A program made the position numbers and the translations under genes. Below the pieces are notes generated by a model. The model worked only from the letters and a program-made list of their open reading frames with translations, had not been told where the DNA came from and made no database searches. 64,000 bases of DNA from Stegostoma tigrinum (Eukaryota). Shown one piece after another: positions 8,621 through 57,402 of the stretch (its first letter is position 1; each line of letters begins with the position of its first letter). Location of the stretch: the NCBI RefSeq assembly GCF_030684315.1, contig NC_081366.1, forward strand, positions 6,510,001-6,574,000, written 5' to 3'.

Positions 8621-8795
8621 CACTGTATCAGATCCTATGTGATGGCGGATGGGACGAGAAGGGGGTAGTCTGGATCTCCAGTCACCATTCAGTCACTGAT
8701 TGGTGGATGGAGACCCATTTGTCCTCAACCAATCACAACTCGCAGCATTTCTTAAAGCTATCAGGTCAGCAAGTTTAACATTTATTGTTGTACAA
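8621..8795 (-). promoter_or_regulatory. Pcdh V1 promoter
   Basis: Plus-strand motif order shared by all paralogs: GATGGCGG/G-rich tract, GGATCTCC, ATTGG 8699, CCAAT 8729, TTCTTAAAGCT 8749, TTTATTGTTGTACAA 8781. Confidence 0.8.
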
Positions 8796-9649
8796 TGAAA
8801 ATCCTTGATCTATTACTTAAGTGATCTAACTTGCTCCGTCAAAGTACCTAAGAAGAAGCTGAAGAAAGATGAACATTTGGAAATGCATCTATATGCACTC
8901 TGTGCAAAACATATGTTGCCATGCACGCCAAGTAACTAGTTGAAGTGATTTGTTTTTATGAGAAGCTCGAATGGAACTGTTCGAACCATATACTTAATAC
9001 ACAAGATTCACGTGTCATATTGTGAATGCGTAATGGCTATCTTAACTGTAAACTACACATAAGTGAGAGGAAAACAAAAAGAAATGCTGAAAACATATCA
9101 TCTGATCCCCTTAAAATGCTCTCAAACGGACATCCCCCTTTCACATTGAGTTAAGTGATTTCAGATCCCTCTGCCGGCATTCTGTTCTATCCGTGACACT
9201 CTGGGGGAAGTATGCAGATTTCAGTAACCCCCAATAACACTTGCCATTCAAGTGCGTCTTTCATGCTATCACAGGTTTGGCACCTAGACGTTCTCTGCCC
9301 TAAACACCCGAGACCCCAATTACTCCTTTCAGCTGAAGCAGCAATTTACACGCACTTCTCTCAATCTAATTTAGGATACATTATGCTCAAAATATTTTTT
9401 CCTCTTTCCCAAGGGAATGGATGGTGTGTTAAACAAATGCAGACTGCCTTGCTGCTATGTGGATCACATTTGTTCAGTTCGCAGGCATGACTTTCAGCTT
9501 TCAAGGGCTTATTATTTTAGTCCTGCACTTTGTTCTTACACTGACATCTCTGTCCTCAGTCTGCATCACTGTTCCATGAAGCGCAATGTGCATGTAAGGA
9601 ACAGTATTTTATCTTTTGATAGACACTTTACACCTCTCAAATTTTAACT

Positions 9650-10025
9650 CTGGCTTCAGTTGGGGGAGGCAATATCTTCGTGTGGCCATCAACCCAGAGA
9701 GTTAAATGATGTTCTGAGGACCTATGCTCGAATCATGCTACGGCAGATGGTAAAATTTCAATTCAATAAAATTCTGGAATTAAGGCACTAACGTTGACCA
9801 CAAGTCCATTGGATTGTTGGAAAAATCCATCAGATTCACTAATATCTTTTAGGGAAGGGAACTAACATCCTTACCAACAACAAGAACACCACCATCGTTA
9901 CCTAGTCTGAACTGCATATGACTTCAGACCCACAGCATTGTGGTTGACCCTTAACTGCCCTACGTACAATTAGGTATGGACACTAAATGGTGGTCCAGCC
10001 AGCAAAACCGACATGCTGTGCATGA
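9650..10025 (-). mobile_element. Degenerate LINE-derived interspersed repeat
   Basis: Resembles by eye a common shark repeat (AAAAATCCATCAGATTCACTAATATCTTTAGGGAAGG...GACTTCAGACCCACAGCA). Family and strand are uncertain. Confidence 0.35.
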
Positions 10026-10599
10026 ACAAGAGAGCTAATTTCTCACAATAACCTCTGCCCCATTTTGTTTCTTCTCTTTCCCTGTGTTGGGTTTTCTCTT
10101 CATGTTTTTGTCACAACTTACAATACCTCTACTCAAAACATATATTTTGCTTCTTGCCTCATTCCGTTTTGTCCTGGAAGACTAGCTTATAGGCTGTTAT
10201 ATCTCTCCTGGCATTCATTTTATTGCAAACCTTTGTTTGTCCTTGTCTTACCTACTTCTTACTCAAATCCCAATATATTTCTAACTATTCCCAGTCTGAT
10301 GAACAGACACAAATCTGAAACATGTTAACTCACTTTCTTTCACCACAGACGTTGTCAGACTTGCTGAGTTTGCACAGCATTTTCGATTCTAAACACATCA
10401 GACGTTCAGTATCTGCAACTTTTCACTTTTCCATGCCAAATTAAAATGCATTCTTTCCCAATAAATATAGTGCAAAATATATTTGGATTCACAGTTTTCC
10501 CCAAAGTAAATATGTATTCAACATTTGGAATTGTTCTGTTAAATGATAGTATTTTGTAGATTTTTGTTTTAACTTGTTCTCTTTTAGATGTAAGATAAA

Positions 10600-11075: not shown

Positions 11076-13550
11076 CTCACTATTTACAATGTTTGTACAT
11101 TTTTCTGGAGGTGAGATGTGTGGGTTTTTTCCCTTCTCAATGTATTCACTCCTGACGTTACATTTCAAATGAGATGAAGTGCACACCTTTGAAAAGGCAG
11201 AGTCATGCTTAGTTGAACCTAAGGTTGAACATGTCTCGTAGCGGAAACTCTGAGACAGAGGGTCACCACCAAATACTTCCACATAATTTGGAGGTATCTG
11301 AATGTTTCTGCTGGCCCTTTGAATGCCATTCAATGAATGTCTTGATTCACAACAGCAGCAGGTGTCCAGGGCACAGCTGTAAACTCCGAGCCGAGTTCTG
11401 TTCCTGTGCACTTTCACAGCAAGGACGATTAAAATTATCAGAAAAGTGGACGAAATTAATGCTAAGGATATCACCAAGTAAAAACTCAAATCAGAAGGGA
11501 ACCCGGGATCTTCATTTAAACTTCCAGCATCAGAAAGCAGCTCTGATTCCTCATCGACCACCGATATACTGATCGTCATAGACGCTGAAAGTGGTGGAGT
11601 TCCGTTGTCTTTTACAATAATTGTTAAACTCTGCTTTATTGAATCTCTGCCCTCAATTCTACGGACTGTCCAGATTTCGCCAGTATCTGGTGAAATCGTG
11701 AAAAGTCCTGGGTCAGTAGCCTGAATAATCTGATAAGATAGGCGAGAGTTCTGACCAGAGTCTGCATCAGTGGCAGATACCTTGGTAACCAGGTATCCTG
11801 GTTCCGCCCAACGGGACATTGCCTCTGTTGCTGTTGGCCCATACTCAGGTAGTGGGTGCAGAATCACTGGAGCATTGTCGTTCTGGTCAAGGATAACAAC
11901 ATCTACTGACACATTGCTGCTGAGTGCTGGAACTCCAGAATCCTGTGCCTGAACATGGAACTGAAAGTTTTTAAGTTTCTCATAATCAAATGTTAACTGA
12001 GAAAGGATGACTCCATTATTTGAATCAATACGCACGTAGTTGGTCACTGGTTCGTCCTGAATCTGTTTTCTCGGAATAGAGTAAGATATCTGACCGTTCG
12101 CATTGACGTCCGGGTCGGACGCTTCCACAGAGAGGATTGACCCTCCGATAACATTGTTCTCCATCACATAGGCTGTGTACACGGGCTGTTTAAAACGTGG
12201 AGCATTGTCATTTACGTCAGTGACCTCCACCCGCAAAGTTTTCTTGGAAGACAGTGGGGTCGAGCTTGCATCACTACAGAGGACAGTGATGTCGTACTTG
12301 GAGGCGGTTTCCCTGTCCAGTTCCTCCCGCGTTAACAATTTGTAATAGTTCTTTAAAGGAGAATTCAATTTAAACGGAATGTTATCTGGGATTTGACAGC
12401 GGACATGTCCATTTTCTCCTGAGTCTTTGTCGGTGGTGCTGATCAGAGCCACCACAGTCCCGGGCACATCGCCTTCACTAACTGGACTGAACAAAGAAGT
12501 TACTAATACCTCTGGTGAGTTATCATTCACATCGGTAACATCGACATGTATGTGACAGTACACTGGAACCGCATAAGGACCCTTATCCATTGCCTGAACA
12601 TTGATCTCAAAAGCATTATTTTCTTCATAGTCCAAATTGCCTTTCACTTTGATCTCCCCTGTTTTGGAGTCCAGATCAAACAGCTCACGCACTGTCCCTG
12701 AGGTATGACTGGTAAAAGAATATTCTATATCGCTATTAGAACCATCATCCAAATCAGTTGCTTTCAGTATGATCACCATTGTTCCTTTGGGCACATTTTC
12801 ATTCAGGCTGACCCTGTAAACCGACTGGGAGAACACGGGAGAATTATCATTGGCGTCCAGCACCGTGATTATTATTTGAGCAGTGCTGGACCGCGGAGGG
12901 ATCCCTCCATCCTTGGCAATAAGCTCTAACCTGTGGGTTGATTCTTTCTCTCGATCCAGTGCCTTTTCAAGCACCAGCACCGGCAGCTTCTCGTCCCCAC
13001 TGCGGGTTTCAACGTCCAGACCGAAGTACTGACTCCCAAGCAATCGGTAGCTTTGTAGGGAATTGGTTCCAACGTCAGGGTCGTGCGCGCACTCAAGAGG
13101 GAAGCGCGCTCCCGGTACAGCCAGTTCAGACATTTCAAGGCGGATTTCGTTTTTTGGAAAATGGGGAACGTTATCGTTAATATCCAAAATCTCCACCTCA
13201 ATTCGATAGACATTCAGAGGATTTTCGATCACAGCCTCTATAGACAATACACATATGAGACTCGACCCACAGAGTTGCTCTCTGTCAACTGTCTCCTTCA
13301 CAAGTAAAATCCCATTGTCTAAATTTACGTCGAAAAACCTTTTGTTGGGGCCGGGCACAATTCGAAAATTTCGAGGCGACAGCTCTTTCACGTGTAAACC
13401 CAAATCCTCGGCAATGTTTCCAACAAAGGCACCCAGCTGTAACTCTTCAGGAATCGAGTAACGAATTTGCCCCGAAACCAGAATCCAAGAGGGGAATACA
13501 CAGTACAACAGTTGCAGTTTTACTAACCAGTGTATTCTATAATATCCCAT
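11076..13550 (-). CDS. Clustered protocadherin variable exon V2
   Basis: ATG at 13550 (MGYYRIHW...), six EC repeats, TM, CCCC, GIQRASRNIQIPPNYVEVFGGDPLSQSFRYETC. Phase-0 donor AGTGAG|GTGAGA at 11076. Confidence 0.95.
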
Positions 13551-13780
13551 TTCCAGCGACAAAACATTTCAGATGCTTCAGTGCAGCGCAGCTCCGTTCG
13601 CCAACTGGTCTCAATAAACTTCCCTATATATAATTTTGCGAGAGCTGTAATTTGCAAAGTACCAGTATTACTTATAGATCCTAGTCTCATTTGTGACGGC
13701 CGTTCCTATTCATTCGAAAATCATCCGTAGGTATACGTGCAAATCGCAAGACAGAAACCGACAGCTTGCTGTCCATTTTA

Positions 13781-13962
13781 CACTGTCGCCGATCTTAGGT
13801 TGATGGTGGATGGGGAGGGAAAAGGGATCTCCAGGCATGTTCTAGCTTCTGATTGGTGAACGTAGGTATGTCCATATCAACCAATCATTGTCTTAGGCGT
13901 CGCTTAAAGCTCGAATGTCTTTGCAAACCTTTTGCGTAAGAACAATATTTATGGTTGTACAA
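13781..13962 (-). promoter_or_regulatory. Pcdh V2 promoter
   Basis: GATGGTGGATGGGGAGGG, GGATCTCC, ATTGG 13852, CCAAT 13881, GCTTAAAGCT, TTTATGGTTGTACAA. Confidence 0.8.
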
Positions 13963-15378: not shown

Positions 15379-17823
15379 CTCACAATTAACAGTATTTCTA
15401 GAATTTGCAGAGTTCAACATTGGTGGGGGATCTTTGCCAGCAGGGCCGGTCTTTCCAGCATGTGAACTCCGCATACTGCGAAACATGAAGTCTCTCTTCA
15501 GCGTATCTGAAGACGAGCACGTCTCGTAGCGGAAGCTCTGAGAAAGTGGGTCGCCCCCAAACACTTCCACGTAGTTCGGAGGAATCTGAAGGCTCCGACT
15601 GGCTTTGTGAGTTCTTGTCTCAAAGCAACAACAGGTGCCCCGAGAAGAGCTTCGGTGGTCAACACCAGGTCTGTTTTTATAAACCATAACGGCGAGGATA
15701 ATTAAAATCACTAGAAAAATGACCGAAAGTAACCCCAAACCTATGACCAAGTAAAAGTTTGCATCCGAAGCAAAAACAGCTCCTTCTGGTAAAGTGTCCA
15801 TCTCGGATAAGATTCCTGTTCTACTTTGTTCCACAGATACAATGATGGTCATGGTCGCTGTAAGTGGCGGGACTCCACTGTCTTTTGCAACAATGACCAA
15901 CTTTTGCTTCCTGAGATCCTTGTCCAGGATGCTACGAACTGTCCATATTTCCCCCGAGTCCGCTGATATAGTAAAAAGTCCCGGGTCAGTAGACTGAAAA
16001 ATCTGGTAGTCAAGGCGAGCATTCTGGCCAGAGTCCGCATCGGTTGCGGCCACTTTTGCAACCAGGTATCCTGGTTCGGTCGATCTCGAAACTGTCTCTA
16101 TCGCCGTAGAGTCATACTCTGGTGATGGCTGTGTGAACACTGGCGCATTGTCATTTTGATCAAGGATAATAAATTGAACTGAGGCATTGCTGGCCAGTGG
16201 CGTAGCTCCAGAGTCCTGTGCCCGCACGTGAATCTGAAAGTTTTTAAGTTGTTCGTAGTCAAATGTTGTGTGAGAATATAACACACCAGTTTCTGAATGA
16301 ATCTGAACATAGTCGGATATTGGTAAATCCTGATCCTCAGTTTCCAGGATGGAGTAGGAGAGTCGAGAATTCTGGTTTAAGTCTGCATCGAAGGCTGTCA
16401 CAGTGAAAACAGAGGAGCCGACAACGTTGTTCTCCATCACATAGGCAGTGTATAAAGGTTGTGTAAAACGTGGAACGTTATCATTAACATCGGAAACTTC
16501 CACGCGGATAGATTTCTTGGCTGCGAGAGGAGGGAATCCTCTGTCGCTACACAAGATTGTAAGGTCATACTCTGACGTTTTTTCGCGATCGAGTGGCTTC
16601 TGAGTGACCAAGCTGTAGTAATTCTTCACAGACGAATCCAGTCTGAAAGGAGAGTCATTTGCAATTTGGCATTGAACCTGTCCATTATCTCCCGAGTCTT
16701 TGTCCTCCACACTAAACAAGGCTACCACCGTTCGAGGCAGGGAGTTCTCAATAACAGGACTGAACATAGAGGTCAAAGTTATCTCAGGTGAGTTATCATT
16801 GACATCAATAATGTTAACCAGGACATCACAGTACACAGGCGTCGCATAAGGCCCCTTGTCCATTGCTTGTACATTAATCTCAAAAACACGATTTTCCTCA
16901 TAGTTCAAGTTGCCTTTGACTCTAATCTCCCCACTTCTGGAATCCACGGTGAACAGTTCGCCAACTTTGGAAGAGGCGTGACTACTGAACGAGTATACAA
17001 TTTCTCCGTTAGGGCCATCGTCCAAGTCAGTTGCGTTTAGTTTGATGACGAGTGTGCCTTTAGATGCATTTTCCAGCATTCTCACCCTCTGTACTGATCG
17101 CGAAAACACAGGCGCGTTGTCGTTCGCATCTTGTACGATAATAATTACCTGGGCAGTTCCAGATTTTTCAGGGATTCCCCCGTCCTTGGCAATTAGTACG
17201 AGTTTGTGTGTCTTTTGTTTTTCCCTGTCCAGCGGCTTTTGCAATACTAACACTGGCAATTTGCCATCTCCACTGCGCGACTGGATGTCTATTGTGAAAT
17301 ACTCGTTACTGACTAACAAGTAGGTCTGTAAAGCGTTAGTTCCAACATCTGGGTCCTGCGCCGATTCTAGGACAAAACGCGCTCCTTCTACGGCCACCTC
17401 TGAGATTTCCAATCGGAATTGACTTTTTGGGAAACTGGGAGCGTTGTCATTTACATCCAGAATATCCACTTGGAAATGATACACGTTTAAAGGATTTTCA
17501 ATCACGGCTTCTAAGGACAAGGTGCATATCAGATTCGGTCCACAGAGCTGTTCTCTGTCAATTTTTTCTTTCACAAGTAATATCCCATTGTCCACATTTA
17601 CGTCCAGATACTGCTTCCTGGGCCCAGACACGGTCCGAAAATTGCGAGCTCTGAGCTCGTTCACATCCAAACCCAAATCATCTGCGATATTCCCAACAAA
17701 GGCGCCCAGTTGCAGCTCTTCGGGAATTGAATAGCGAATCTGTCCCGAAACAAGCACCCAGTAGGGTAAGATAAAGAACAAAAGTGACCATTTCAACAGC
17801 CAGTGTATTTCAGAAAATCCCAT
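15379..17823 (-). CDS. Clustered protocadherin variable exon V3
   Basis: ATG at 17823 (MGFSEIHW...), six EC repeats, TM and the conserved cytoplasmic motif. Phase-0 donor TGTGAG|GTGAGA at 15379. Confidence 0.95.
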
Positions 17824-18060
17824 TTCCTGCACAATGCATTACAAATGCTTCAGCGCGTCTCGCCATTCAGTGAATCCTTGGAATAAGATTCCGTGCAAGC
17901 GATTTTCACCGATAAAGAGGGATAATATTACATTAAAATACCTGTATTTTTCACATATCACTGAAAAGTCGATCTGATCTTCGTATTTCTTTATAAAATT
18001 GCCAACATAAACGAATATTACACCCGGTGTAGCGCTACTCAGCTCTCTATACGGGTTTTA

Positions 18061-18238
18061 CACTGTATCTGATCTACGTAATGGTGGATGGGGAGGGAAC
18101 GGGGCAGTCAAGATCTCCAGACACATTACAGCTTTTTATTGGTGAATGGGAATTCAACCAATGACCATGCAGAACATTTCTTAAAGCTGGAATGTCCCTG
18201 TAAATATCTCAGTGGTATTGACATTTAGCATTGTGCAA
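18061..18238 (-). promoter_or_regulatory. Pcdh V3 promoter
   Basis: AATGGTGGATGGGGAGGG, AGATCTCC, ATTGG 18138, CCAAT 18158, TTCTTAAAGCT, TTGTGCAA. Confidence 0.8.
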
Positions 18239-21557: not shown

Positions 21558-21816
21558 TTCCAGCACAAAACATTTCAAGTGATACAAGCGCAGAGTGAAA
21601 ACAAAACAAAAAATAATCCTGGCAAAAGAATCAATTATATTTCCATTCTGGCGAAACAGCTAGCTTGCCTGAATAACACAGTTTTAAAATTAAAAGAAAT
21701 CTATGATATTATTGCGAACAAACCTTCTCATTTTGTCTAAAATCACCAGTGGCTGAAAAGTAGAAGACCTAATGTAACGAGACGCAGCTCGACCCAAGCT
21801 CTATCTGGTTGGACAC

Positions 21817-21981
21817 AATGGCGGAGGGGAGGGTAAGGCAGTAAGGATCTCCGGTAACATTGTAGCCATTCATTGGAGGAAAGGGCTGCCTTACATTCAA
21901 CCAATCACGACACTGAACGTTTCTTAAAGTTGGAATGCATTTCTAAGACATTGCTCAATAGTTAGATTTATTGTTGTGCAA
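21817..21981 (-). promoter_or_regulatory. Pcdh V4 promoter
   Basis: AATGGCGGAGGGGAGGG, GGATCTCC, ATTGG 21872, CCAAT 21901, TTCTTAAAGTT, TTTATTGTTGTGCAA. Confidence 0.8.
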
Positions 21982-23269: not shown

Positions 23270-25681
23270 CTCACTAAGTATAGCTTTCTCCCCGTTTACA
23301 ACGATTTCCCTCCAAGCTTTGTTATTTTCTGTGGACGTGCTGGGGAAATGGACGTCCCTCTTTAGCGAACATGTGTCATAACGAAAACTTTGGGAAAGTG
23401 GATCGCCCCCAAATACTTCAACATAGTTGGGGGTAATCTGTAGGTTCCGGCTGGCTTTCTGAATTCCATTTCTCGATTCAAAGCAGCAACATGTGCCCAA
23501 AAAACATATGCGTCCATCAAAAGCAGCTCTGCTTCCATTAAGCTTAATAGCCAGTATGATTAAAACCACCAAAAAAACCGACGAGATAATTCCCAAAGAA
23601 ATAACTAAGTACAGGTTGGTATCAAAAGTGAAGCCAGGGCTTTCAGCTAAACTGCCTGGGTCATTGAGCATTTCCGCACTGCCTTCTACAATTGTCAGGA
23701 TGATAGTAATTGTCGCTGTAAGTGCTGGTACTCCATTGTCATTTACAAGGATATCTAACTTCTGCTTGTTTGCATCTGTCTTTGTAATCCTTCGGGTTGT
23801 CCATATTTCACCCGTTTCCAATGAAATCGTAAAAAGTCCCCAATTGTTATCATGGAAAATCCGATAGGATAGGTGAGCATTTTGCCCTGAGTCTGCATCA
23901 GTGGCCGTTACCTTGGTCACGAGATACCCTGGATCCGCCAATTGGGGTAGGGTCTCTGTCACTGTTGACCCATACTCAGTTATCGGATGCACAATCACTG
24001 GAGCGTTGTCATTCTGATCAAGGATAATGATGTCTATGGAGACGTTGCTAGCGAGTTGTGGGACTCCACGATCACGCGCTTGAACTCGGACCTGCAAGTT
24101 TTTTAATTGCTCGTGGTCAAAAGATCGAAAGGAATATATCACGCCACTCTCTGAATTTATGTGGATGTACCTGCTTACCGATTCGCCCTGAACCTGGCTC
24201 TCCAGGATATAATAGGACAGCTGGCCGTTTTGCCCTAGGTCGGGATCCGAAGCTGACACCGAGAAAATGGACGCATCGATTTCGTTATTCTCCATCACGT
24301 AGGCTGTGAGGGACGGTTGCGCAAACTGTGGCGCGTTGTCATTCCTGTCTGAAACTTCAACCACAATGGTTTTGTTGGTGGAGAGAGGCGGGGTTCCGCC
24401 ATCGTTACAAGTGATAGTCACATCATAGGTAGAGAAGGATTCGCGGTCCAGCCGTTCCTGCGTGATCAACCGTAAATACTTCTTGGAGGACGAATCCAGT
24501 GCGAAGGGAAGATGATTGCCGATTTTACACTGCAGCTGCCCAAATTTTCCGGAATCCCTGTCTGACGCACTGATCAGGGCTACTACAGTTCCAGGCAGAG
24601 AGTCTTCTGGAACAGGGCTGGATAAGGATGTCAGCGTCACTTCAGGGGCATTATCATTGACATCAATAATGTTCAACACAACATGACAGTATGTTGGGTT
24701 GGCATTAAGTCCCTGGTCCTTTGCTTGTACAATAAATTCGAAAACGTTAACATCCTCATAGTCCAAATTCGCTTTGGTTCTGATCTCGCCCGTTTTCGAA
24801 TCCAAACCAAACAGTTCACGGACTTCAGCAGATGCAACACTACTGAAAGAGTACACAATCTCTCCATTAGAACCATCATCTAAATCCGTGGCGTTTACCC
24901 GCAGAGCCAAGGACCCTTTAGTTATATTCTCTGCCAGGCTGACTCTGTAAACCGATTGCAGGAAAAATGGCTCATTGTCGTTGGCATCTTCAACTATGAT
25001 ATTGATCTGGGTAGTACCAGACCTCTCGGGTACCCCGCCGTCTTTGGCCAACAGCAGTAGCCTGTGGATCGATTGCTTCTCTCTGTCCAGGGGCTTTTCT
25101 AGCACTAGTACGGGTAACTTCCCATCTCCAATGCCCGCCTCAACATTTAACAAGAAGTATTCATTTGCAACCAGCTGGTAGGTCTGTACGGAGTTAATTC
25201 CAACATCAGGATCGTGCGCGCACTCGAGGGGAAAACGCTTACCCGGCGCAGCAACTTCGGAGATTTCAAGGCGGACCTGGCCCTTCGGGAAACTGGGAGC
25301 GTTGTCATTTATATCGCGAATCTCCACCTCGATCTGATGCAAATTCAAAGGATTTTCAAGCACAGCTTCCAAAGACAAAACGCAAGTGAGACGAGGGCCG
25401 CAGATTTGTTCCCTGTCAACCTTTTCATTTACGAACAGAATCCCATTGTGTAAATTGACTTCCAAATATCGCTGATTTGGACCCGATACAAGTCGAAAAT
25501 TCCGAGCAGATAGCTGCTGGACATCAAATCCCAAATCGTCAGCAACGTTTCCAACGAATGCACCCAGATGCAATTCTTCAGGAATCGAGTAACGAATTTC
25601 TCCTAAAATTAGATCCCAGGAGATAAACATGCAAAATAGCAGTTTCGATTTTAAAAAGTAAAATATATTGTAACATCTCAT
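23270..25681 (-). CDS. Clustered protocadherin variable exon V5
   Basis: ATG at 25681 (MRCYNIFY...), EIRYSIPEE, six EC repeats, TM and the conserved cytoplasmic motif. Phase-0 donor AGTGAG|GTGAGG at 23270. Confidence 0.95.
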
Positions 25682-25920
25682 TGCCAGTATTAAGCATTCC
25701 AATTGTTTCACCGCAGCTCCGTAGCATTCGGCGTTTCCTTAAGATTAGAATTGTTTGTGCCGAGTTTCATTACTGAAAAGGCTGCAATGCAGGGAAAATG
25801 TCTTCACCTTTTAAGTGATGCTCGAAATAGTTTCAAAAAGGCCTCTATTTTGTGGTTAAAATCCCAATGAATGCATCGGCGAAAACGATCGCAAACCCTC
25901 TATAGCTCGCTGACCAATTT

Positions 25921-26096
25921 CACATTGTCTCGGGCTGAGTGCGATGCTAGTTGGGAAGGGAAGCGACAGGCCGGATCACCACCAAGTTTCTAGCTTCTGA
26001 TTGGCAGACTCACGTTCAACCAATCAGAATAAAACTCATTTCTTAAAGGTAGAATGTTCCCCTAAATCATTGTTATTCCAAATTTTTGTTGCACAA
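25921..26096 (-). promoter_or_regulatory. Pcdh V5 promoter
   Basis: G-rich tract, GGATCACC, ATTGG 26000, CCAAT 26020, TTCTTAAAGGT, TTGTTGCACAA. Confidence 0.8.
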
Positions 26097-31545: not shown

Positions 31546-31777
31546 CGCCAGTACAAAACATTCCAATTGCTTCAGCGTTGTGCGCCGCTGGTAATTCAGT
31601 GTTTAAAATCGAGGTCTTCATGTATCATTTTCTTGGAGAAGTGAAGCTACAGTGCATAACATACGTTCAATTTTTCCAATTCACTGATATTCTTCCAGAC
31701 AAACATTCCCTTTTTTCTGAAAAATCTCAACAACGCACAAACCTCACAAATGCTCCGTAGCTCGCCATTCCATTCTC

Positions 31778-31951
31778 CACTGTATCCGATTGTGTATGAG
31801 CAGACAAGGGGGCAGTCAAGATCTCCACTTACATTGCAGTTTCTGATTGGGCAGGAGGGAGCTCTCACGTTCAACCAATCACCGTACAGACGACTTCTTA
31901 AAGCTGGAATGACTTGGCAGATCTTTTTAGTTAACATTTATGGTTGTGCAA
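31778..31951 (-). promoter_or_regulatory. Pcdh V6 promoter
   Basis: CACTGTATCCGAT, AAGGGGGCAGTC, AGATCTCC, ATTGG 31846, CCAAT 31875, TTCTTAAAGCT, TTTATGGTTGTGCAA. Confidence 0.8.
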
Positions 31952-38476: not shown

Positions 38477-38700
38477 TTCCAGAGTCAAACATTCCCTTTA
38501 TTTCAGCATGTATCCGCAGCATTAATTATTCTCTTTATAGTTATATCAATGCTTTTATTTCGAAAGCAACTGCGACGTAGTAAATACCTGAACATTTCAC
38601 GAATCGCTTGGATTCTACCATTTAAGTTTCCTATTTTTTCTAAATGTCGAATGGATTCGTGAACAATTGCTTACGAGCCGCTGGCAATCCAATTTTATCT

Positions 38701-38880
38701 CTGTGTGATCGGACGTGATGGTGTCTGGGTAGTGAAGGGGCTGTCCGGATCCCCGTCCACATCTTACGTTCTGATTGGTGAAGAGCAGCACGCTTAAATT
38801 TGACCAATCAAATTACCATTTACTTCTTAAAGCTGTGAGTTCTGCAGTAAGTGCAATTGTCGAGATTTATTGTTGCGCAC
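38701..38880 (-). promoter_or_regulatory. Pcdh V7 promoter
   Basis: GTGATGGTGTCTGGG, GGATCCCC, ATTGG 38774, CCAAT 38804, TTCTTAAAGCT, TTTATTGTTGCGCA. Confidence 0.8.
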
Positions 38881-40665: not shown

Positions 40666-43134
40666 CTCGTTGTACAAAGTGTTGCTGACCTTCTCGGTGG
40701 GCAGCAACTCAGGATCCCGTTTCCCAACATAATCATTCTGGGCATACGTTTTGTCCGTGGGTGACTTGCATCTGTTGGGGGTTATGAAGTCTCGCCTTGT
40801 TGACTGCAATGTTGAACATGACTCATAACGGAAACTCTGAGAAAGTGGGTCACCACCGAATACCTCAACGTAATTTGAGGGTATCTGAAGGTTTCTACTG
40901 GCTTTTTGAATTCCATTCAGAGAATGCCCAGTTTCAATGCAACAACAAACTCCCAGGGAACAGTGCTGACCACTCTGTGGATTCCTGCTTTTATGAACCT
41001 TCACAGCGAGAATAATTAAAATCACGAGAAAAATGGTAGAAATAATTCCTAATACGATGACCAAGGAAAGGCTCAGATCAGGCCGAAACCGGGGGTCTTC
41101 AGACGAACCACTGACTTTGGAAAATATGTCAGCGTCATCACCAATTACAGTTAAGATAATAGTCACTGAGGCAGAAAGAGATGGTGATCCATTATCTTTT
41201 ACCAGAATCACCAACCTTTGCTTCGAGGCATCTTTGGAAACGACACGACGGATTGTCCAAATTTCTCCAGTGTCTGGTGAAATAGTAAAAAGGTTATGCT
41301 GGGTAGCCTGAAAAATGGAATAAGAAAGACGAGCGTTCTGACCGGCATCAGCGTCAGTGGCGGATACCTTGGCAACCAAATAGCCTGGTTCCGCAAACCT
41401 GGATATTGTATCAACTGCTGTTGACCCAAATTCGGCCACTGGCTGCACGATGACTGGAACGTTGTCATTTTGATCCAGGATAATCACATCCACTGAAACA
41501 TTACTTGTCAATGATGGCGTCCCAAAGTCCAATACCTGAGCTTGAATCTGAAAGTTTTTCAGTTGCTCGTAGTCAAAAGATCTTTGAGCGAATATAACAC
41601 CGGTGTGCGGGTTAATAGAGATGTAATCGAATACCGAGGCGTTCAGAATTTGAGTCTCCAGAATGAAGTATTTCAGTTGAGCGTTCACTCCAACATCGCG
41701 ATCAAAGGCTGTAATGGAAAGTATAGAAGCGCCAATATCATTATTCTCCATTATGCTTGCTGTAAATACAGATTGACTGAATTGTGGCGCGTTGTCATTT
41801 ACATCGGTTATCTCGACCCGAATAGTTTTCTTGGATGTTAGTGGAGGATTTCCGGCATCAGAACATGTTATTGTAACGTCATACTTGGAGTTATTTTCAC
41901 GATCCAGTGCACGATGAACAAGTATTCCGTAATAATTCTTTAAAGAAGAATCCAGTTTAAATGGCAATTTATTTGAAATATGACATTGTAACTGTCCGTT
42001 TGCGCCCGAATCTTTATCTGCCGCAGCGAATAGAGCGACTACAGTCCCAACTGCGACATTTTCGGAAATTGTACTCGATAAAGACGTCAAAATCACCTCA
42101 GGTGGGTTATCATTCACATCAATAATATTTACCAAAATATCACAGTGCCCCAACATAGCATCAGAACCTCCGTCTGTAGCCTGAATGTTTAACTCAAAAA
42201 CACTGGTTTGTTCATAGTCCAATGTCCGTTTTACTATAATTTCACCAGTTTTGGAATTCACGCCAAACAGTTCACGAACTTCAGCTGAAGTGTGGCTACC
42301 AAACGAATAGCTTATCTCTCCATTGGACCCTTCGTCCAAGTCAGTGGCATTTAGTTTGATTACCTGCGATCCTGTGGCTACATTCTCTAACAGATTGACT
42401 CTGTAAGTTGACTGGGAGAAGACGGGAGCATTGTCGTTTGCATCATTTACAATTATCATAACCTGACTCGTGCCCGATCTCACAGGTACTCCGCCGTCCT
42501 TGGCTATCAACGTTAATTTGTGGCTGCTTTCCGCTTCTCTGTCCAAGGTACTCTGTAGCACTAATACCGGGGATTTTACATTACCACTACGCATCTGTAC
42601 ATCGAGAACAAAATAATCGTTCGGAAGGAGCTCGTAGTTTTGTACGGAATTGGTTCCAACGTCCAGATCGTGCGCGGGCTCGAGTGGAAAGCGCGTTCCA
42701 GGAATAGAACGCTCTGACACTTCTAGGCGGAATTGTGTATTTGGGAAGCTAGGAGCATTGTCATTCACATCGAGAATCTCCACTGCAACCTGGTACAGCT
42801 TTAAAGGGTTTTCAAGGAAAACGTTGAAGCTTAGCACACAACTGAGGCTCGGTCCGCAGATCGCTTCTCTGTCAATTATTTTCGACACCAATAAAATGCC
42901 AATGTCCAAATTTATATCCACGTATTGTGTGTTGGGTCCGGCTACTATTCGCAAATTGCGAGCCGAGAGCTGCTTTACATCTAAACTGAGATCCTCAGCG
43001 ATATTCCCAACAAAGGCGCCGAGTTGCAGTTCTTCAGGAATTGAGTAACGAATCTGTCCAAACACTAGGTTCCAAGAAGAGAATATGCAGCACAAGAAAT
43101 GGCATTTCAGACGCCAAAATATTTTATATCTCAT
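40666..43134 (-). CDS. Clustered protocadherin variable exon V8 (close paralog of V7/V9)
   Basis: ATG at 43134, six EC repeats, TM. Phase-0 donor AACGAG|GTGAGC at 40666; 823 codons. Confidence 0.95.
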
Positions 43135-43359
43135 TTCCAGAGTCAAACATTCCCTTTATTTCAACATGTATCCGCAGCATTACTTATTCTCCTTTGAGTT
43201 ATACCAATGTTTTTGTTTCGGAAGCAATTGCACCGGAGTAAATACCTGAACATTTCACAAATCGCTCGGATTATACCATTTAAGCCTTGTATTTTCTCGA
43301 AACGTCCAGTCGATTCGTGAACAATTCCTAACGAGCCGCTTGCAGTCCAATTTTACCCT

Positions 43360-43540
43360 GCGTCTGATTAGACGTGATGGTGTCTGGGTAGCGAAGGGGC
43401 TGTGCGGATTCCCATCCACATCTTAAGTTCTGATTGGTGAAGAGCAGCGCGCTTAAATTCCACCAATGAAATTACTGATGACTTCTTAAAGCTGGGCGTC
43501 CTGCAGTGAGTGCAAATGCCTCGATTTATTGTTGCACAAT
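43360..43540 (-). promoter_or_regulatory. Pcdh V8 promoter
   Basis: GTGATGGTGTCTGGG, GGATTCCC, ATTGG 43433, CCAAT 43463, TTCTTAAAGCT, TTTATTGTTGCACAA. Confidence 0.8.
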
Positions 43541-44698: not shown

Positions 44699-44737
44699 CT
44701 GTTGAGTTTGGTCGGCTCGGCGAGCTGGTTTGTTGTG

Positions 44738-44780
44738 CCGCAGACTTTCATTCCCGTGCTTGGTAACATCCTCAGTGCAG
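44738..44780 (-). ncRNA. Minimal type-I hammerhead ribozyme-like motif (left Penelope terminus)
   Basis: CTGCA-CTGAGGA-T-GTTACC-AAGCAC-GGGAAT-GAAA-GTC-TGCGG. Stem I is CTGCA/TGCGG, stem II is imperfect, and one base is missing from the GAAACGTC consensus. Confidence 0.55.
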
Positions 44781-47507: not shown

Positions 47508-47551
47508 CTGCACTGAGGATGTTACCAAGCTCGGTTACGACACATCTGCGG
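47508..47551 (+). ncRNA. Degenerate minimal hammerhead motif (right Penelope terminus)
   Basis: CTGCA-CTGAGGA-T-GTTACC-AAGCTC-GGTTAC-GACAC-ATC-TGCGG. The core GAAA is mutated to GACA. Confidence 0.5.
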
Positions 47552-47625
47552 AACAACAAACTAGCTCGGCCAGCCAACCAACGTCAACAGCCACAACCCG
47601 AGCTACAGATCTACTCCAAAACGTT

Positions 47626-51221: not shown

Positions 51222-51450
51222 AACCGCATAAACCGCTCAAATGTGCCACAATTCGCTGTTCCATTCTACACTATATTTAGTTTTGTGGGAGCAATGAAGT
51301 AGGGCTATGAAGATCGCCCCCCACATTTCAGCTTCTGATTGGACAGTAGGGAGCTCTCACGTTCACGTTCATCAAGATACAGATGATTTCTTAACGGTGG
51401 ACCGATTTGGAAGATTTTTTATTTGCATTTCACATTTATGATTGCCCATT
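51222..51450 (-). promoter_or_regulatory. Orphan, partly decayed copy of the V6 promoter with no exon attached
   Basis: Aligns to 31733-31960 (GCTTCTGATTGGACAGTAGGGAGCTCTCACGTTCA). The second CCAAT is lost and TTCTTAAAGCT has become TTCTTAACGGT. Confidence 0.75.
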
Positions 51451-53487
51451 TAAAAATACAATCTTTTTATTTCATTCATAATTTTAGTTCTATTTGTTGA
51501 AACATTATTTGTGAGATCTTTTACAATGAATAACTAGATCAGGATTACCTTTGCTTCTACTAAGCACATTTCTGTAGACCCTACTTATTACATGAAACAT
51601 GGATTGCCTGGTGCTTCACTATTTAAATATACTTAACGGATTTTAACCATCCGATTTGTCAACATTTACTATTTATTATTTATTCATTCACAGTAGCAAC
51701 ATTTTAATACTCGATATCAGGATCACTTGAAGTTAAAAAAAGTTGTCAAATGTGTTTACAGCGAAATATTGTGGATGCTGGAGATCTGAATTAAAAGCCA
51801 AATGTGCGGGGTAACCTCAGCAGGTGTGGCAGAAGCTTCATAGAGAGGAACAGGGATAATGTTGTCAGTTTATATGGGTAGTTTGATGGAGAGTCATATT
51901 GGACTCAAAACACGAACGTTGTTTCTCTCTCGTCAGATGCAACCAGATCTGTTTCGTTTCTCTCACACATTTTGATTTTATTTAAATATAATTATAGTGG
52001 ATGATGCAAGATGGATTTTGGCTGACTTTGTATTCTTTATGGGGTTGGGGTAAAATATGGGAATTAACAGAGAGTGAGTTGTGTAGTGTTTGGGAAAACA
52101 GGCTTGGTGGATTTTGCATTCTAAATAGTGTGTAAATACAAGTTGTATCCCCTCAATTCATACTTTTACTCACTATGTATGCAATAGTGTGATTTACTGT
52201 TTACTGCATTATCTCTTACACAATGATATAATGAAGAAAGGACTTAAAATAATGTATAAACCATTAATTACTTCGATGTAATCTTGCAAATTATATTTTT
52301 ACAGCCATGAAGTGAATTATTTGCATGTACAACAGAGTTCCAGAGCCATCAAGATGATTCATTGATTTTACTCGAATTTCTGTCAGAGCCCTCAGCAACT
52401 TCTAATCTTCTTTGCTTGGATCTATTTCAAATCCAGACGCTATGTAATTACTTTGCACCCTTGGCTTGGGACTGCAATCCTGCTGTCAGTGAGCATGCTC
52501 CGTACTTGTGTTGTTACATCAAAGCTTAGAATCTTTACTGCACAGTTAAAACACAAATGAGTAGAGAGTTTAGGTAACGGATGAAGCACGGATAGAATAG
52601 TTATACTGAGTATTTTCCACAGGGAAGAACTGTCAAGGCTCGGGAACACAGGTTTAAGTCAAAAGGGGGTAAGTTTAAAGGAGGTGTGAGAATCAGGTTT
52701 TCAAGCAGAGGGTGGGATGTGCCTGGAATAAGCTATCAGAGAATCTGGTGGAGGCAGGCACGTTAATAACATTTCAGAGGCATCTTGACAGAGATGTGAA
52801 TAGTTAGGGAACAGAGGGATAGAGGCCATGTCGAGACAAAAGATTTTTCGTTTCAAACGGCACCATGTGTGGGCGCAGTCTTGGTGGGAGTCAAATGGCT
52901 TGGTAGTATGCTGTACTGTTCTTTGCTCTTTGTAGTGTCTACATGTTCAATACTTTAAAATGAGCAACTATACACCTAAATATAATATGAAAATGATATG
53001 AGCCACAGAACAATAGGTAAAAAATGGCTAAAGAACTTCTTGGAATTACACTTAATTACAGTAGAATCATATAGTTATACATCACTAGTACAGGCATTTC
53101 GATCCAACAATTCTACACTGATCAATATCACAAACTAAACTACTCCCATCTTCTTCTGGTTAGGACATCTGTCTGCTGACATTTCTTTTTCACTTCCGCA
53201 TCTCCTTTTCGAAGCATCTTTCAAACATTGCAACTGTACCAGCATCCAAAATTTCTTCTCAAAGTTCATTACAAATACAAACCACGCTCTGTGGTAAAAA
53301 GTCACCCATCATGTTTTTTAAAAAATCTTTCTCCTCTCACTCAAAGCTTTTCCCCATAGTTTAGAAATCCCCCACCCGAGGGAAAAGACACCTTCCATTT
53401 ACTCAATCCATATCCTCAAAATTTGTATAAGGTCACCCCTCTAACTCCAATGGTCCAGTGGAAAACAACATCGTCCAGCCTGTCCAG

Positions 53488-53587
53488 GATAACAAAGTGT
53501 GGAGCTGGGTGAACACAGCAGGCCAAGCAGCATCTTAGGAGCACAAAAGCTGACGTTTCACGCCTCGACCCTTCATCAGAAAAGCTA
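53488..53587 (-). mobile_element. 100-bp Penelope-derived insertion with hammerhead-like motif and 14-bp TSD
   Basis: TSD TCCAGCCT(G/A)TCCAG at 53474-53487 and 53588-53601. Minus strand reads CTGATGAAGGGTCGAGGCGTGAAACGTC. Confidence 0.75.
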
Positions 53588-54562
53588 TCCAGCCTATCCA
53601 GCTTCTCTTTATAATTCAAACTCTCCATTCCCAGCAACATCCTGGTGACTCACTTTTGAAACTTTTCCTGCTAAATAATACCCTTCTTATTGTAGAATAT
53701 AAACAAGAGCAGGTCAGAGGGCAAGAATACAATGGCGAGCAGCACAGCGCATGACCACCCTAAGCTGACCCACCATCTACAATACACAAGGCAGCAGTAC
53801 GAAAGAGGATTTCCCACTTGCCTGGATGGTGCAACCCTAACAGCACTGAAAAACAAAAATCTGGACATGATCCAGAAGAACAGCTATTGGTGTTATTTTC
53901 ACGAGAAACTGGACATCCAGCCAGCTGAGCGACCTGACAAACAAGAGAAGGTCAGAACCTATTAATTCTGGGTAGGAATCTCACCTTCTGACTTCACAGA
54001 CAAGTTCAAAATTTTTAAGGCGAAAGTTAGGACTGTGATGGACTGAGCGCCACTTGCCTGGGGGTGGGGGGGGGCATGTATTTCAAACAAAACTCAAGAT
54101 ATTTAATGCCAACGAAGACTAAACAACATATTTGACTGGAACACCACATAAAATCTTCAACATCCACTCCCTTCATTAGCAAAGCACAATACCAGCACTG
54201 TGCATGATCTATAAGATGCACTACAGCATCTCACCAACGCCTCTGAGACATCACTTGTAATAGCACTGCAAGTAGCAACTAGAAGGGCAAGAATAGGAGA
54301 TGCAAATTAAAAAAAATAACTTGACATGGCAGAGACTGACCTGGACTTAAAGGAAAACATGGTTCCAAAACTGTCATGGAGTTAAATCACTGGAGACCCC
54401 CCCTAAACCCAGGGTAAAAAAAAAAACACCATCACAGTTCAGGAAGGCAACTAGACACCATATTCTTGAGGAAGACTAGGTCCATGCAAAAGTGCTGGCC
54501 AAATGGTGATGCTGACATTGCTTGAAAGAATAAAAAAAATTCCCATTTTCGAAATTGCTCAC

Positions 54563-57007
54563 CTCATTGCGCAAAGTGTTGCTGACCTTCTCTGTGTGCA
54601 ACAACTCAGGGTCCTGTTTCTCCAAATAAACATGTGACTTACATCTGTTGGGGGTTATGAAGTCTCTCCTTGTTGACTGCAATGTTGAACATGACTCATA
54701 ACGGAAACTCTGAGAAAGTGGGTCACCACCGAATACCTCAACGTAACTTGAGGGGATCTGAAGGTTTCTACTGGCTTTTTGAATTCCATTCAGAGAATGC
54801 CCAGTTTCAATGCAACAACAAACTCCCAGGGAACAGTGCTGACCACACTGTGGATTCCTGCTTTTATGAACCTTCACAGCGAGAATAATTAAAATCACGA
54901 GAAAAATGGTAGAAATGCTTCCTAATACGATGACCAAGGAAAGGCTCAGATCAGGCCGAAACCCGGGTACTTCAGATGAACTATTGACTTTGGAAGACGT
55001 TAGAGCGTCATCACCAATTACAGTTAAGATAATAGTCACTGAGGCAGAAAGAGATGGTGATCCATTATCTTTTACCAGAATCACCAACCTTTGCTTCGAG
55101 GCATCTTTAGAAACGACACGACGGATTGTCCAAATTTCCCCAGTGTCTGGTGAAATAGTAAAAAGGTTATGCTGGGTAGCCTGAAAAATGGAATAAGAAA
55201 GACGAGCGTTCTGACCGGCATCAGCGTCAGTGGCGGATACCTTGGCAACCAAATAGCCTGGTTCCGCAAACCTGGATATTGTATCAACTGCTGTTGTCCC
55301 AAATTCGGCTAATGGCTGCACGATGACTGGAACGTTGTCATTTTGATCCAGGATAATCACATCCACTGAAACATTACTTGTCAATGATGGCGTCCCAAAG
55401 TCCAATACCTGAGCGTGAATCTGAAAGTTTTTCAGTTGCTCGTAGTCAAAAGATCTTTGAGCGAATATGACACCAGTGTGCGGGTTAATAGAGATGTAAT
55501 CGAATACCGAGGCGTTCAGAATTTGAGTCTCCAGAATGAAGTATTTCAGCTGAGCGTTCACTCCAACATCGCGATCAAAGGCGGTAATGGAAAGTATAGA
55601 AGCGCCAATATCATTATTTTCCATTATGTTTGCTGTAAATACAGGTTGACTGAATTGTGGCGCGTTGTCATTTACATCGGATACCTCCACCCGAATGCTT
55701 TTCTCAGACATAAGTGGAGGATTTCCGGCATCCGAACATGTTATTATAACGTCATACTTGGAGGTATTTTCACGATCCAGTGCACGATGAACAAGTATTC
55801 CGTAATAATTCTTTAAAGAAGTTTCCAGTTTAAATGGCAATTTATTTGAAATCTGACATTGTACTTGCCCGTTTGCGCCCGAATCTTTATCTGCCGCAGC
55901 GAACAGAGCGACTACAGTCCCAACTGCTACATTTTCCGAAATTGTACTTGATAAGGACGTCAACTTCACTTCTGGTGGGTTATCATTCACATCAATAATA
56001 TTTATCAAAATATCACAGTGCCCCGACATCGCGTCAGAACCCCCGTCTGTAGCCTGAATGTTTAGCTCAAAGACACTGGTTTGCTCATAGTCCAATGTCC
56101 GTTTTACTATAATTTCACCAGTTTTGGAATCCACGCCAAACATTTCCCGAACTCGAGCTGAAGTGTGGCTACCAAATGAGTAGATTATCTCTCCATTGGA
56201 CCCATCGTCCAAGTCAGTGGCATTTAGTCTGATTACCTGCGATCCTGTGGCTACATTCTCTAACAGACTGACTCTGTAAGGTGACTGGGAGAAGACGGGA
56301 GCATTGTCGTTTGCATCGTTTACAATTATTATAACTTGAACCTTGCCCGATCTCACGGGCACTCCGCCGTCCTTGGCTATCAACGTTAATTTGTGGCTGC
56401 TTTCCGCTTCTCTGTCCAAGGTACTCTGTAGCACTAGTACCGGGGATTTTACATTACCACTACGCAACTGTACATCGAGAATAAAATAATCGTTCGGAAG
56501 GAGCTCGTAGTTTTGTACGGAATTGGTTCCAACGTCCAGATCGTGCGCCGGTTCGAGTGGAAAGCGCGTTCCAGGAATAGAACGCTCTGACACTTCTAGG
56601 CGGAATTGTGTATTTGGGAAACTAGGAGCATTGTCATTTACATCGAGAATCTCCACTGCAACCTGGTACAGCTTTAAAGGGTTTTCAAGGAAAACATCGA
56701 AGCTTAGCACACAACTGAGGCTCGGTCCGCAAATCTCTTCTCTGTCAATTATTTTCGACACCAGTAAAATGCCAATGTCCAAATTTATATCCACGTATTG
56801 TGTGTTGGGTCCGGATACTATTCGCAAATTGCGAGCCGAGAGCTGCTTTACATTTAAGCTGAGATCCTCAGCGATATTCCCAACAAAGGCGCCGAGTTGC
56901 AGTTCTTCAGGAATTGAGTAACGAATCTCTCCAAACACTCGGTTCCAAGAAGAGTATATGCAGTACAAGAATTGGAATTTTAAAAACCAAAATATTTTAT
57001 ACCTCAT
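54563..57007 (-). CDS. Clustered protocadherin variable exon V9 (close paralog of V7/V8)
   Basis: ATG at 57007, six EC repeats, TM. Phase-0 donor AATGAG|GTGAGC at 54563; 815 codons, with an 8-aa cytoplasmic deletion relative to V7/V8. Confidence 0.95.
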
Positions 57008-57227
57008 TTCCAGAGTCAAACATTCCCTTTATTTCAGCATGTCCCCGCAGCATTAATTATTCTCTTTATAGTTCTGTCTTTTTTTGTATCGAAAGCAACT
57101 GCGACATAGCAAATACCTTGACGTCTCATGAATCGCTCCGCTTATAACATTTAATTGCTCTATTTTCTCTAAAATGTCCATTCGATTCGTGAACAAATCC
57201 TGCCGAGCTGCTTGCCATCCAATGTAA

Positions 57228-57402
57228 CTCAGTGTCTGATCAGACGTGATGGTGTCTGGGTAGTGAAGGGGCCGTCCGGATCCCGAACCACATTTCAAGT
57301 TCTGATTGGTGAAGAGCAGTCCGTTTAAATTCGTCCAATCAAATTATCGTTGATTTCTTAAAGCTGGGAGTTCTGGGGTGAGCGCAAATACTGTTGCACA
57401 AT
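57228..57402 (-). promoter_or_regulatory. Pcdh V9 promoter
   Basis: GTGATGGTGTCTGGG, GGATCCCG, ATTGG 57305, CCAAT 57335, TTCTTAAAGCT, TGTTGCACAA. Confidence 0.8.

What the first reader, a model, noticed from the sequence alone, without database searches (positions are those of the whole stretch)
8621..57402. Shared promoter cassette built on an inverted CCAAT pair rather than an obvious CGCT/CTCF element
Seen in all nine promoters, about 230-420 bp upstream of the ATG, in fixed order on the plus strand: G-rich tract (usually after ATGG(T/C)G), RGATC(T/C)CC-like motif, ATTGG, CCAAT, CTTAAAG, TTG(T/C)(A/G)CA(A). No invariant CGCT box is evident. Known: mammalian Pcdh promoter choice uses a CGCT-containing CTCF site; CCAAT binds NF-Y; TTGCACAA resembles a C/EBP site and ATGGCGG a YY1 site. 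Inference: this lineage may run promoter choice through a different factor set. The near-invariant TTCTTAAAGCT has no binder I can assign. CCAAT-type motifs may already have been noted in elephant shark.
Basis: partly seen in the sequence, partly recalled or inferred. Interest (0 to 1): 0.7.

Follow-up and report, generated by a model that had tools for sequence, protein, structure and literature searches.

The report
Shark protocadherin promoters without CTCF sites
Nine neighbouring shark genes for nerve-cell identity proteins share a conserved, rigidly spaced promoter built on two CCAAT boxes and show no recognisable site for CTCF, the protein that anchors the choice among such genes in mammals, so the shark genes may be switched on by a different route.

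Summary
The window is zebra shark (Stegostoma tigrinum) Pcdh-nu: nine variable exons on the minus strand. ATTGG, CCAAT, CTTAAAG and TTGYRCA occur in order in 9 of 9 promoters. Spacing is rigid: GATC-ATTGG 26 bp and CCAAT-CTTAAAG 22 bp in 9 of 9, ATTGG-CCAAT 20 or 29-30 bp. Two exon-less copies of one promoter have decayed at the neutral rate while working promoters have not, so the motifs are under selection. With recalled matrices, NF-Y (0 of 200 shuffled matrices) and C/EBP (1 of 200) are supported; CTCF (81), YY1 (45), Sp1 (55) and TBP (128) are not, and there is no exonic CTCF site. The interpretation overreaches. A cassette shared by all promoters shows competence, not choice. CGCT-less and CSE-less Pcdh promoters are published, a CGCT element is cited for elephant shark (paper not held), and no real CSE served as positive control. 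Verdict: real, a new variant, moderate interest.

The parts
8603..8795 (-). g1 promoter cassette: proximal block 8603-8626, G-rich tract from 8642, GATC 8673, ATTGG 8699, CCAAT 8729, CTTAAAG 8751, TTGTACAA 8788 (plus-strand letters)
13764..13962 (-). g2 promoter cassette (GATC 13826, ATTGG 13852, CCAAT 13881, CTTAAAG 13903, TTGYRCA 13955)
18042..18238 (-). g3 promoter cassette (GATC 18112, ATTGG 18138, CCAAT 18158, CTTAAAG 18180, TTGYRCA 18231); 20-bp box spacing
21787..21981 (-). g4 promoter cassette (GATC 21846, ATTGG 21872, CCAAT 21901, CTTAAAG 21923, TTGYRCA 21974); proximal block shortened by a deletion
25905..26096 (-). g5 promoter cassette (GATC 25974, ATTGG 26000, CCAAT 26020, CTTAAAG 26042, TTGYRCA 26089); 20-bp box spacing
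31760..31951 (-). g6 promoter cassette (GATC 31820, ATTGG 31846, CCAAT 31875, CTTAAAG 31897, TTGYRCA 31944)
38680..38880 (-). g7 promoter cassette (GATC 38748, ATTGG 38774, CCAAT 38804, CTTAAAG 38826, TTGYRCA 38873)
43338..43539 (-). g8 promoter cassette (GATT 43407, ATTGG 43433, CCAAT 43463, CTTAAAG 43485, TTGYRCA 43532)
57210..57401 (-). g9 promoter cassette (GATC 57279, ATTGG 57305, CCAAT 57335, CTTAAAG 57357, TTGYRCA 57394)
51226..51475 (-). Orphan copy oA of the g6 promoter, no exon downstream, cut by a retroelement; keeps one CCAAT box, has lost the other box, CTTAAAG and TTGYRCA
   Evidence: nhmmer E 1.9e-27; blastn 70% to g6 over 1.7 kb
59044..59323 (-). Orphan copy oB of the g6 promoter, no exon downstream; keeps TTGCACAA, has lost both CCAAT boxes and CTTAAAG, GATC/G-rich part deleted
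   Evidence: nhmmer E 8.7e-14; blastn 70%
6082..8394 (-). Pcdh-nu variable exon g1 (ATG to splice donor)
   Evidence: 100% to RefSeq protein P0001 over 772 aa; donor
11076..13550 (-). Pcdh-nu variable exon g2
15379..17823 (-). Pcdh-nu variable exon g3
   Evidence: 99.8% to P0106
19113..21557 (-). Pcdh-nu variable exon g4
23270..25681 (-). Pcdh-nu variable exon g5
29080..31545 (-). Pcdh-nu variable exon g6
36008..38476 (-). Pcdh-nu variable exon g7
40666..43134 (-). Pcdh-nu variable exon g8
54563..57007 (-). Pcdh-nu variable exon g9

Best explanation
The cassette is the proximal promoter of each Pcdh-nu variable exon, copied with the exon and kept by purifying selection (shown). Two back-to-back CCAAT boxes most likely bind NF-Y (inferred from matrix match). 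Each box is locked to a partner site at a fixed distance (CTTAAAG at 22 bp, GATC at 26 bp), the spacer between the two halves changes by about one helical turn, and a C/EBP-type palindrome sits distally (spacings shown; cooperative, face-of-helix assembly inferred). This makes every promoter similarly competent and probably sets a start site near -200 to -240 (inferred from the recalled usual CCAAT position). The promoters carry no canonical CTCF anchor (shown by motif scan only). Which exon a cell uses is therefore most likely set outside the cassette, by distal enhancers and chromatin state, without CTCF loop anchors at the promoters (inferred).
For: Order and presence 9 of 9, spacings 26 and 22 bp in 9 of 9, box spacing 20 (2 of 9) or 29-30 (7 of 9). 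Fourfold-degenerate sites are only 30-45% identical between the seven lineages, yet g6 keeps 48 of 52 ungapped columns that are invariant in the other eight promoters (48 of 55 with gaps) against 68% expected, P 3e-5 and 9e-4; orphans keep 40 of 49 and 33 of 42, matching the neutral 84% and 82%. NF-Y matrix: both boxes beat 200 of 200 shuffled matrices; C/EBP 199 of 200; CTCF best register reached by 81 of 200 in promoters and 163 of 200 in exons. CTCF motif is nearly identical in lamprey, chicken and mammals (PMC5504073 passages). NF-Y shows positional bias and direct contact with C/EBPb and low overlap with CTCF/cohesin peaks in the cell lines studied (PMC4889920 passages). Promoters are CpG-rich, o/e 0.85 pooled against 0.43 outside genes and promoters.
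Against: No binding, expression or start-site data. All six matrices were recalled. No real Pcdh CSE was available as positive control; the 98% sensitivity figure is for sites sampled from the matrix itself. PMC5504073 warns that motif scanning alone did not predict CTCF sites in human Hox clusters. The G-rich tract of g1 reaches about p 1e-4 for CTCF (1.3e-4, -log10 p 4.1) and g6 comes close, in reverse orientation. PMC2926608 cites a CGCT element in elephant shark. Direct contrasts were only borderline: g6 against orphans Fisher p 0.058, orphan invariant against other columns p 0.056. Box spacings of 29-30 fall between the common double-CCAAT spacings of 24-28 and 35-37 bp (PMC4889920 section 14). 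Binders of CTTAAAG and GATC remain unassigned.
Confidence: 0.6

Rival explanations
1. CTCF does bind these promoters through an atypical site: the proximal block (gene strand ACAGTG...TGG...GCRAGC, -200 to -240) is the homologue of the CSE, and the mammalian mechanism is conserved.
For: The block is conserved (information about 1.1 bits per column at its two peaks) and lies where the CSE lies, about 200 bp upstream (PMC4978886). Zebrafish and Xenopus alpha CSEs lack the CGCT box. It holds CGCT on the antisense strand in several promoters and a CpG in 3 of 9 with CpA in 3 more. Its CAG-to-AG distance resembles the recalled spacing of CTCF's upstream and core motifs (post hoc). A CGCT element is cited for elephant shark.
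Against: In the forward register the CTCF core scores below zero bits in all 8 promoters where the anchor was found (best -0.2; g4 has the block shortened and gave no row); the reverse register is matched or beaten by 200 of 200 shuffled matrices. The G-rich tract lacks the core CC, is reversed and is partly deleted in g2. No exonic site.
Confidence: 0.2
2. Nu promoters are not chosen stochastically: they resemble C-type promoters, are co-expressed or cell-type regulated, and need no choice machinery. This is compatible with the NF-Y cassette.
For: Among solved clustered ectodomains of like length, g1 scores highest with gamma-C4 (454 bits; alpha-4 442, gamma-A1 419, gamma-B3 408, beta-8 381) and with alpha-C2 and gamma-C3 (340). 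Mammalian alpha-c2, gamma-c4 and gamma-c5 have no CTCF site (PMC7688460, PMC7811963 passages). Xenopus gamma2 15-36 lack the CSE and group with gamma-c4/c5 (PMC4978886).
Against: Similarity is not phylogeny: alpha-4 ranks second and non-clustered protocadherin-10 first overall; no tree with C-type genes was built. Nu is reported to have no orthologue in bony vertebrates (PMC2764143). A large array spliced to one constant region resembles the alternate exons.
Confidence: 0.3
3. The shared motifs are only residual similarity of duplicated DNA, without function.
For: All nine promoters are paralogous; g7-g9 are recent copies; orphans still keep 80% of the invariant columns.
Against: Fourfold sites are near saturation between lineages, flanks beyond about -420 show few conserved columns, motif spacings are fixed, and the orphans lose the motifs at the neutral rate while g6 does not.
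Confidence: 0.03

Closest known systems
Mammalian clustered Pcdh promoter with CSE/pCBS (and exonic eCBS in Pcdh-alpha)
   Same: One promoter per variable exon, shared motif a few hundred bp upstream of the ATG, CpG-rich, exons spliced to a common constant region.
   Different: No invariant CGCT box, no forward CTCF motif at the promoter or in the exon; the best-conserved elements are two CCAAT boxes, CTTAAAG, GATC and TTGYRCAA, with no CpG in their invariant cores except g7's TTGCGCA.
Xenopus pcdh-gamma2 15-36 and mammalian alpha-c2, gamma-c4, gamma-c5 promoters (no CSE)
   Same: Pcdh promoters without a CSE; in Xenopus a tandem run of them shares another motif about 200 bp upstream.
   Different: The Xenopus motif is a single 13-bp element whose sequence is in a figure I could not see, so no comparison was possible; the shark cassette is a 190-bp multi-element module.
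Elephant shark Pcdh-nu subcluster (Yu et al. 2008, PMC2268768, not held)
   Same: Same subcluster by constant region and tree.
   Different: Cited by PMC2926608 as having a CGCT element; what motif was reported, for which subcluster, and whether CCAAT boxes were described stayed unchecked.
Vertebrate double-CCAAT NF-Y promoter modules (PMC4889920)
   Same: Two strong NF-Y matrix matches within 30 bp, fixed distances to neighbouring sites, C/EBP-type and purine-rich neighbours.
   Different: Spacing 20 or 29-30 against 19, 24-28, 35-37 and 43 bp in human cells; here repeated in a tandem array of alternative promoters with two unassigned partner sites.

Membership tests
Pcdh-nu subcluster of cartilaginous fish | Variable exons group with elephant shark nu exons | tested here: met
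   All nine fall in one clade with five named nu proteins, SH-aLRT 98, quick tree; mu and epsilon exons were not in the tree.
Pcdh-nu subcluster of cartilaginous fish | Spliced to the nu constant region | tested here: met
   RefSeq isoforms of g1 and g3 carry a constant region matching elephant shark nu; constant exons are outside the window.
CSE/CTCF-type Pcdh promoter | CGCT box at a fixed place about 200 bp upstream | tested here: not met
   5 of 9 on the antisense strand in differing registers, 4 of 9 scattered on the gene strand.
CSE/CTCF-type Pcdh promoter | Forward-oriented CTCF motif at each promoter | tested here: not met
   0 of 9 gene-forward hits at p<1e-4 within 600 bp; best forward register reached by 174 of 200 shuffled matrices. 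Recalled matrix, no true CSE as control.
CSE/CTCF-type Pcdh promoter | Exonic CTCF site (alpha type only) | tested here: not met
   Best forward register in codon-aligned exons reached by 193 of 200 shuffled matrices.
CSE/CTCF-type Pcdh promoter | Conserved element at the CSE position | tested here: inconclusive
   A conserved block lies at -200 to -240, but homology to the CSE could not be tested without CSE sequences.
CSE/CTCF-type Pcdh promoter | CTCF/cohesin occupancy, looping to reverse-oriented enhancer sites, methylation-dependent stochastic choice | not testable with these tools
   Needs ChIP, 4C and single-cell data; enhancers would lie outside the window.
NF-Y CCAAT promoter | Intact CCAAT pentamer with favoured flanks | tested here: met
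   18 of 18 pentamers intact; 14 of 18 at p<1e-4; 0 of 200 shuffled matrices.
NF-Y CCAAT promoter | NF-Y occupancy and need for activity | not testable with these tools
   Needs ChIP, EMSA and reporter mutants.
YY1, Sp1 or TATA element | Matrix match at an aligned position above shuffled matrices | tested here: not met
   45, 55 and 128 of 200 shuffled matrices score as well.
REST/NRSE-controlled Pcdh promoter | Canonical NRSE near the promoter | tested here: not met
   No match with fewer than 3 mismatches to the consensus of PMC2926608 anywhere in the window, none in a cassette; non-canonical and half sites were not scanned.

The most novel reading that the evidence does not exclude
Sharks choose among nu protocadherin promoters stochastically but with no CTCF anchors at promoters or exons: an old, rigidly spaced NF-Y module with two unidentified partner factors makes each promoter competent. 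CTCF-anchored choice would then be a bony-vertebrate addition or a cartilaginous-fish loss, and neuronal barcoding would have a second regulatory solution in vertebrates.
Probability: 0.25. Interest if true: 0.78.

Novelty: new variant of a known kind. Interest (0 to 1): 0.47.

Why it matters
CTCF sites at each promoter are central to the current model of how neurons pick protocadherin isoforms. An array of at least nine alternative promoters with a selected, rigid, CTCF-free architecture in an early-branching jawed vertebrate gives a direct test of whether that anchor is ancestral and required. It also points to two fixed-distance motifs without a known binder, and the exon-less copies are ready-made negative controls.

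Tried and rejected
CTCF at the G-rich tract: reverse orientation, no core CC, 81 of 200 shuffled matrices as good. CTCF at the proximal block: negative scores. CTCF in -2500..+800: 4 of 18 strand-wise best hits plus no shared position passed p<1e-4 by chance-level scatter; whole window 17 hits against 12.8 expected, 14 with the second pseudocount, strongest inside a retroelement at 49977. Exonic site: none. YY1, Sp1, TBP: not supported. NRSE: none canonical. RFX X-box, CHR, STAT, TEAD, GATA and MTE readings of GATC, CTTAAAG and the proximal block were compared by eye with recalled consensus words and not tested; none fits all nine. Rfam: 0 matches. Orthologous promoter DNA from other sharks could not be fetched: the open DNA collections hold no vertebrate genomes, so none was searched. 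CSE sequences for a positive control were not found: PMC3333863's supplement is an unreadable rtf, PMC7087399's supplement lists only flanking guides and primers, Yin 2017 and Hara 2018 are not held. The careful tree did not finish; the quick tree is cited. Ten literature searches listed no paper describing CCAAT/NF-Y elements in Pcdh promoters of sharks; most subscription papers, including Yu 2008, are outside the library, so this is no proof that it is unpublished.
Full report
Identity of the locus. Nine open frames of 827-915 codons lie on the minus strand and encode cadherin-repeat proteins (Pfam checked for g1 and g9). I number them g1-g9 by ATG: 8394, 13550, 17823, 21557, 25681, 31545, 38476, 43134, 57007. 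g1 is 100% identical over 772 aa to a Stegostoma tigrinum RefSeq protein and g3 99.8% to another. Both isoforms end in a constant region matching elephant shark Pcdh-nu, and all nine group with five named nu proteins (SH-aLRT 98, quick tree of 23 rows; no mu or epsilon rows). The constant exons are outside the window. g1 groups with proteins of two other sharks, a sawfish and a skate (SH-aLRT 100), so the paralogues, and by inference the cassette, predate the shark-ray split.

The observation. On the plus strand, 180-450 bp from each ATG, ATTGG, CCAAT, CTTAAAG and TTGYRCA are present in 9 of 9, TTGYRCAA in 8, ATGG(T/C)G in 7, strict RGATCYCC in 6. TTCTTAAAGCT is exact in place in 6 of 9. The ordered pattern hits these nine places only and 0 times in 100 simulated windows, though it was drawn from the data. 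Leave-one-out profiles find each promoter at E below 1e-31. CGCT is not invariant. g7-g9 are 91-93% identical as proteins, so the nine represent about seven lineages.

First, rigid spacing: GATC to ATTGG is 26 bp in 9 of 9 and CCAAT to CTTAAAG 22 bp in 9 of 9; ATTGG to CCAAT is 20 bp in two and 29-30 bp in seven; CTTAAAG to TTGYRCA is 37, 47 or 51-52 bp. The first three fit two fixed half-modules whose spacer changes by one helical turn; the 51-52 class does not fit whole turns. Second, a further conserved block at about -200 to -240. Third, two copies of the g6 promoter with no exon behind them, at 51226-51475 and 59044-59323, about 70% identical to g6 over 0.9-1.7 kb.

Selection. Fourfold-degenerate sites are 30-45% identical between lineages. 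Of 55 columns invariant in the eight promoters other than g6, g6 keeps 48 (3 gapped), against 68% expected from its divergence elsewhere (P 3e-5 without gaps, 9e-4 with). The orphans keep 40 of 49 and 33 of 42 ungapped columns, as expected for neutral decay on one branch (84% and 82%; P 0.41 and 0.31). Each orphan keeps only one of the four core motifs intact. The direct Fisher contrasts are weaker (p 0.056 and 0.058), and the expectation uses neighbouring columns that are themselves partly constrained.

Which factors. I used six count matrices recalled from JASPAR, from no call. An alignment-anchored scan over 620 bp, with 200 column-shuffled matrices as null, gave NF-Y 0 of 200 for both boxes, C/EBP 1 of 200, YY1 45, Sp1 55, CTCF 81, TBP 128. 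Of the 19 NF-Y hits at p<1e-4 in the window, 14 are cassette boxes and one is in an orphan. CTCF gave 17 hits against 12.8 expected and none within 600 bp of an ATG. With another pseudocount the G-rich tract of g1 just passes (-log10 p 4.1) and g6 reaches 3.7, both reversed relative to mammalian promoter sites, the other seven 0.6-2.5. The proximal block scores below zero bits in the forward register in the 8 promoters that gave rows. Codon-aligned exons show no shared site (193 and 163 of 200); that the FPLE codons correspond to the mammalian exonic site is recalled. The matrix should apply to sharks because the lamprey motif is nearly identical to the mammalian one, but the same paper warns that motif scans alone were unreliable in Hox clusters (PMC5504073 passages). 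Sites sampled from the matrix pass p<1e-4 in 98% of cases; I had no real CSE to test. CTTAAAG (an interrupted palindrome, CTT-A-AAG) and GATC remain unassigned.

Mechanism. The most likely reading is a proximal promoter module: NF-Y on two back-to-back boxes, each cooperating with a neighbour at fixed distance, plus a C/EBP-type bZIP site, giving every exon similar competence. Being common to all promoters it cannot itself say which is used. In mammals the common CTCF site becomes a switch because methylation of its CpG blocks binding (PMC7811963 passages; bioRxiv 10.1101/360206 passages). Here the invariant cores lack CpG except in g7; the most shared CpGs are at -219 and -212 (3 of 9 each) and -32 (4 of 9), although the promoters are CpG-rich overall (0.85 against 0.43). 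So choice, if it occurs, probably acts through enhancers or regional chromatin without promoter CTCF anchors. None of this is shown by binding or expression data.

Comparison with what is known. Zebrafish and Xenopus alpha CSEs lack the CGCT box, and Xenopus gamma2 15-36 lack the CSE and carry another motif (PMC4978886 passages). [quoted passage not shown] Almost half of NF-Y-bound regions in K562 cells have two boxes (PMC4889920 section 14). PMC2926608 (passages) refers to a CGCT element in the elephant shark cluster, citing Yu 2008, which is not held; it may be the proximal block read on the other strand (my inference) or belong to another subcluster. A guide flanking the alpha-12 CTCF site contains a CCAAT pentamer (PMC7087399 supplement rows), and YY1 binds beside the human alpha CSE (PMC3333863 passages and section 17), so parts of this vocabulary may be shared with mammals. 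Also read as passages with nothing bearing on the cassette: PMC1852091, PMC8096226, PMC11343191; PMC2764143 for subcluster history. Ten searches listed no description of CCAAT boxes in shark Pcdh promoters; figures, an unreadable supplement and the missing primary paper could change that.

Verdict. The feature is real and selected. It works like an NF-Y double-CCAAT promoter, and it fails the sequence tests for a CSE/CTCF-type Pcdh promoter. The step from there to a different choice mechanism is plausible but untested and has partial precedent. New variant of a known kind; interest 0.47; novel case probability 0.25, interest 0.78 if true.

Noticed in passing
16-17 bp upstream of each ATG (e.g. 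window 8408-8410): An out-of-frame upstream ATG at -16 (8 of 9) or -17 (g2) in all nine genes, opening an 8-53 codon frame that overlaps the main start. It could damp translation or be part of a DNA motif.
   Followed up: partly
window 5933-6082 (g1 exon end): g1 uses an early splice donor at 6082; the donor at the position used by its paralogues (5933) is out of frame. Orthologues in two other sharks and a skate end at the same early point, so this isoform lacks about 50 residues of the variable cytoplasmic part.
   Followed up: partly
window 60136-61005: Broken fragment of a g7-9-like exon (76% DNA identity), joined directly to g6-like upstream DNA that ends in orphan promoter oB; a remnant of unequal crossing-over.
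   Followed up: partly
window 49322-51225: Retroelement with a reverse transcriptase frame (RVT_1) interrupts orphan oA; g6-like sequence resumes at 49376-49442. It holds the strongest CTCF match of the window (49977, p 3e-7) and a 186-bp inverted repeat 50116-50301/50737-50922 at 99.5%.
   Followed up: no
window 44699-45393 and 46882-47590: A 700-bp inverted repeat (86%) around degenerate retroelement-like frames.
   Followed up: no
window 26115-26125: A second exact TTCTTAAAGCT upstream of the g5 cassette, whose in-place copy has one mismatch.
   Followed up: no
about -30 from each ATG (e.g. window 8420-8440): Conserved GCTGAA on the gene strand (TTCAGC on the other), resembling the left half of an NRSE; no canonical NRSE was found.
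   Followed up: partly
window 39815-39924: Weak profile hit (E 0.72) with TTGYRCA, CCAAT and CTTAAAG in another order between g8 and the g7 promoter; possibly chance.
   Followed up: no
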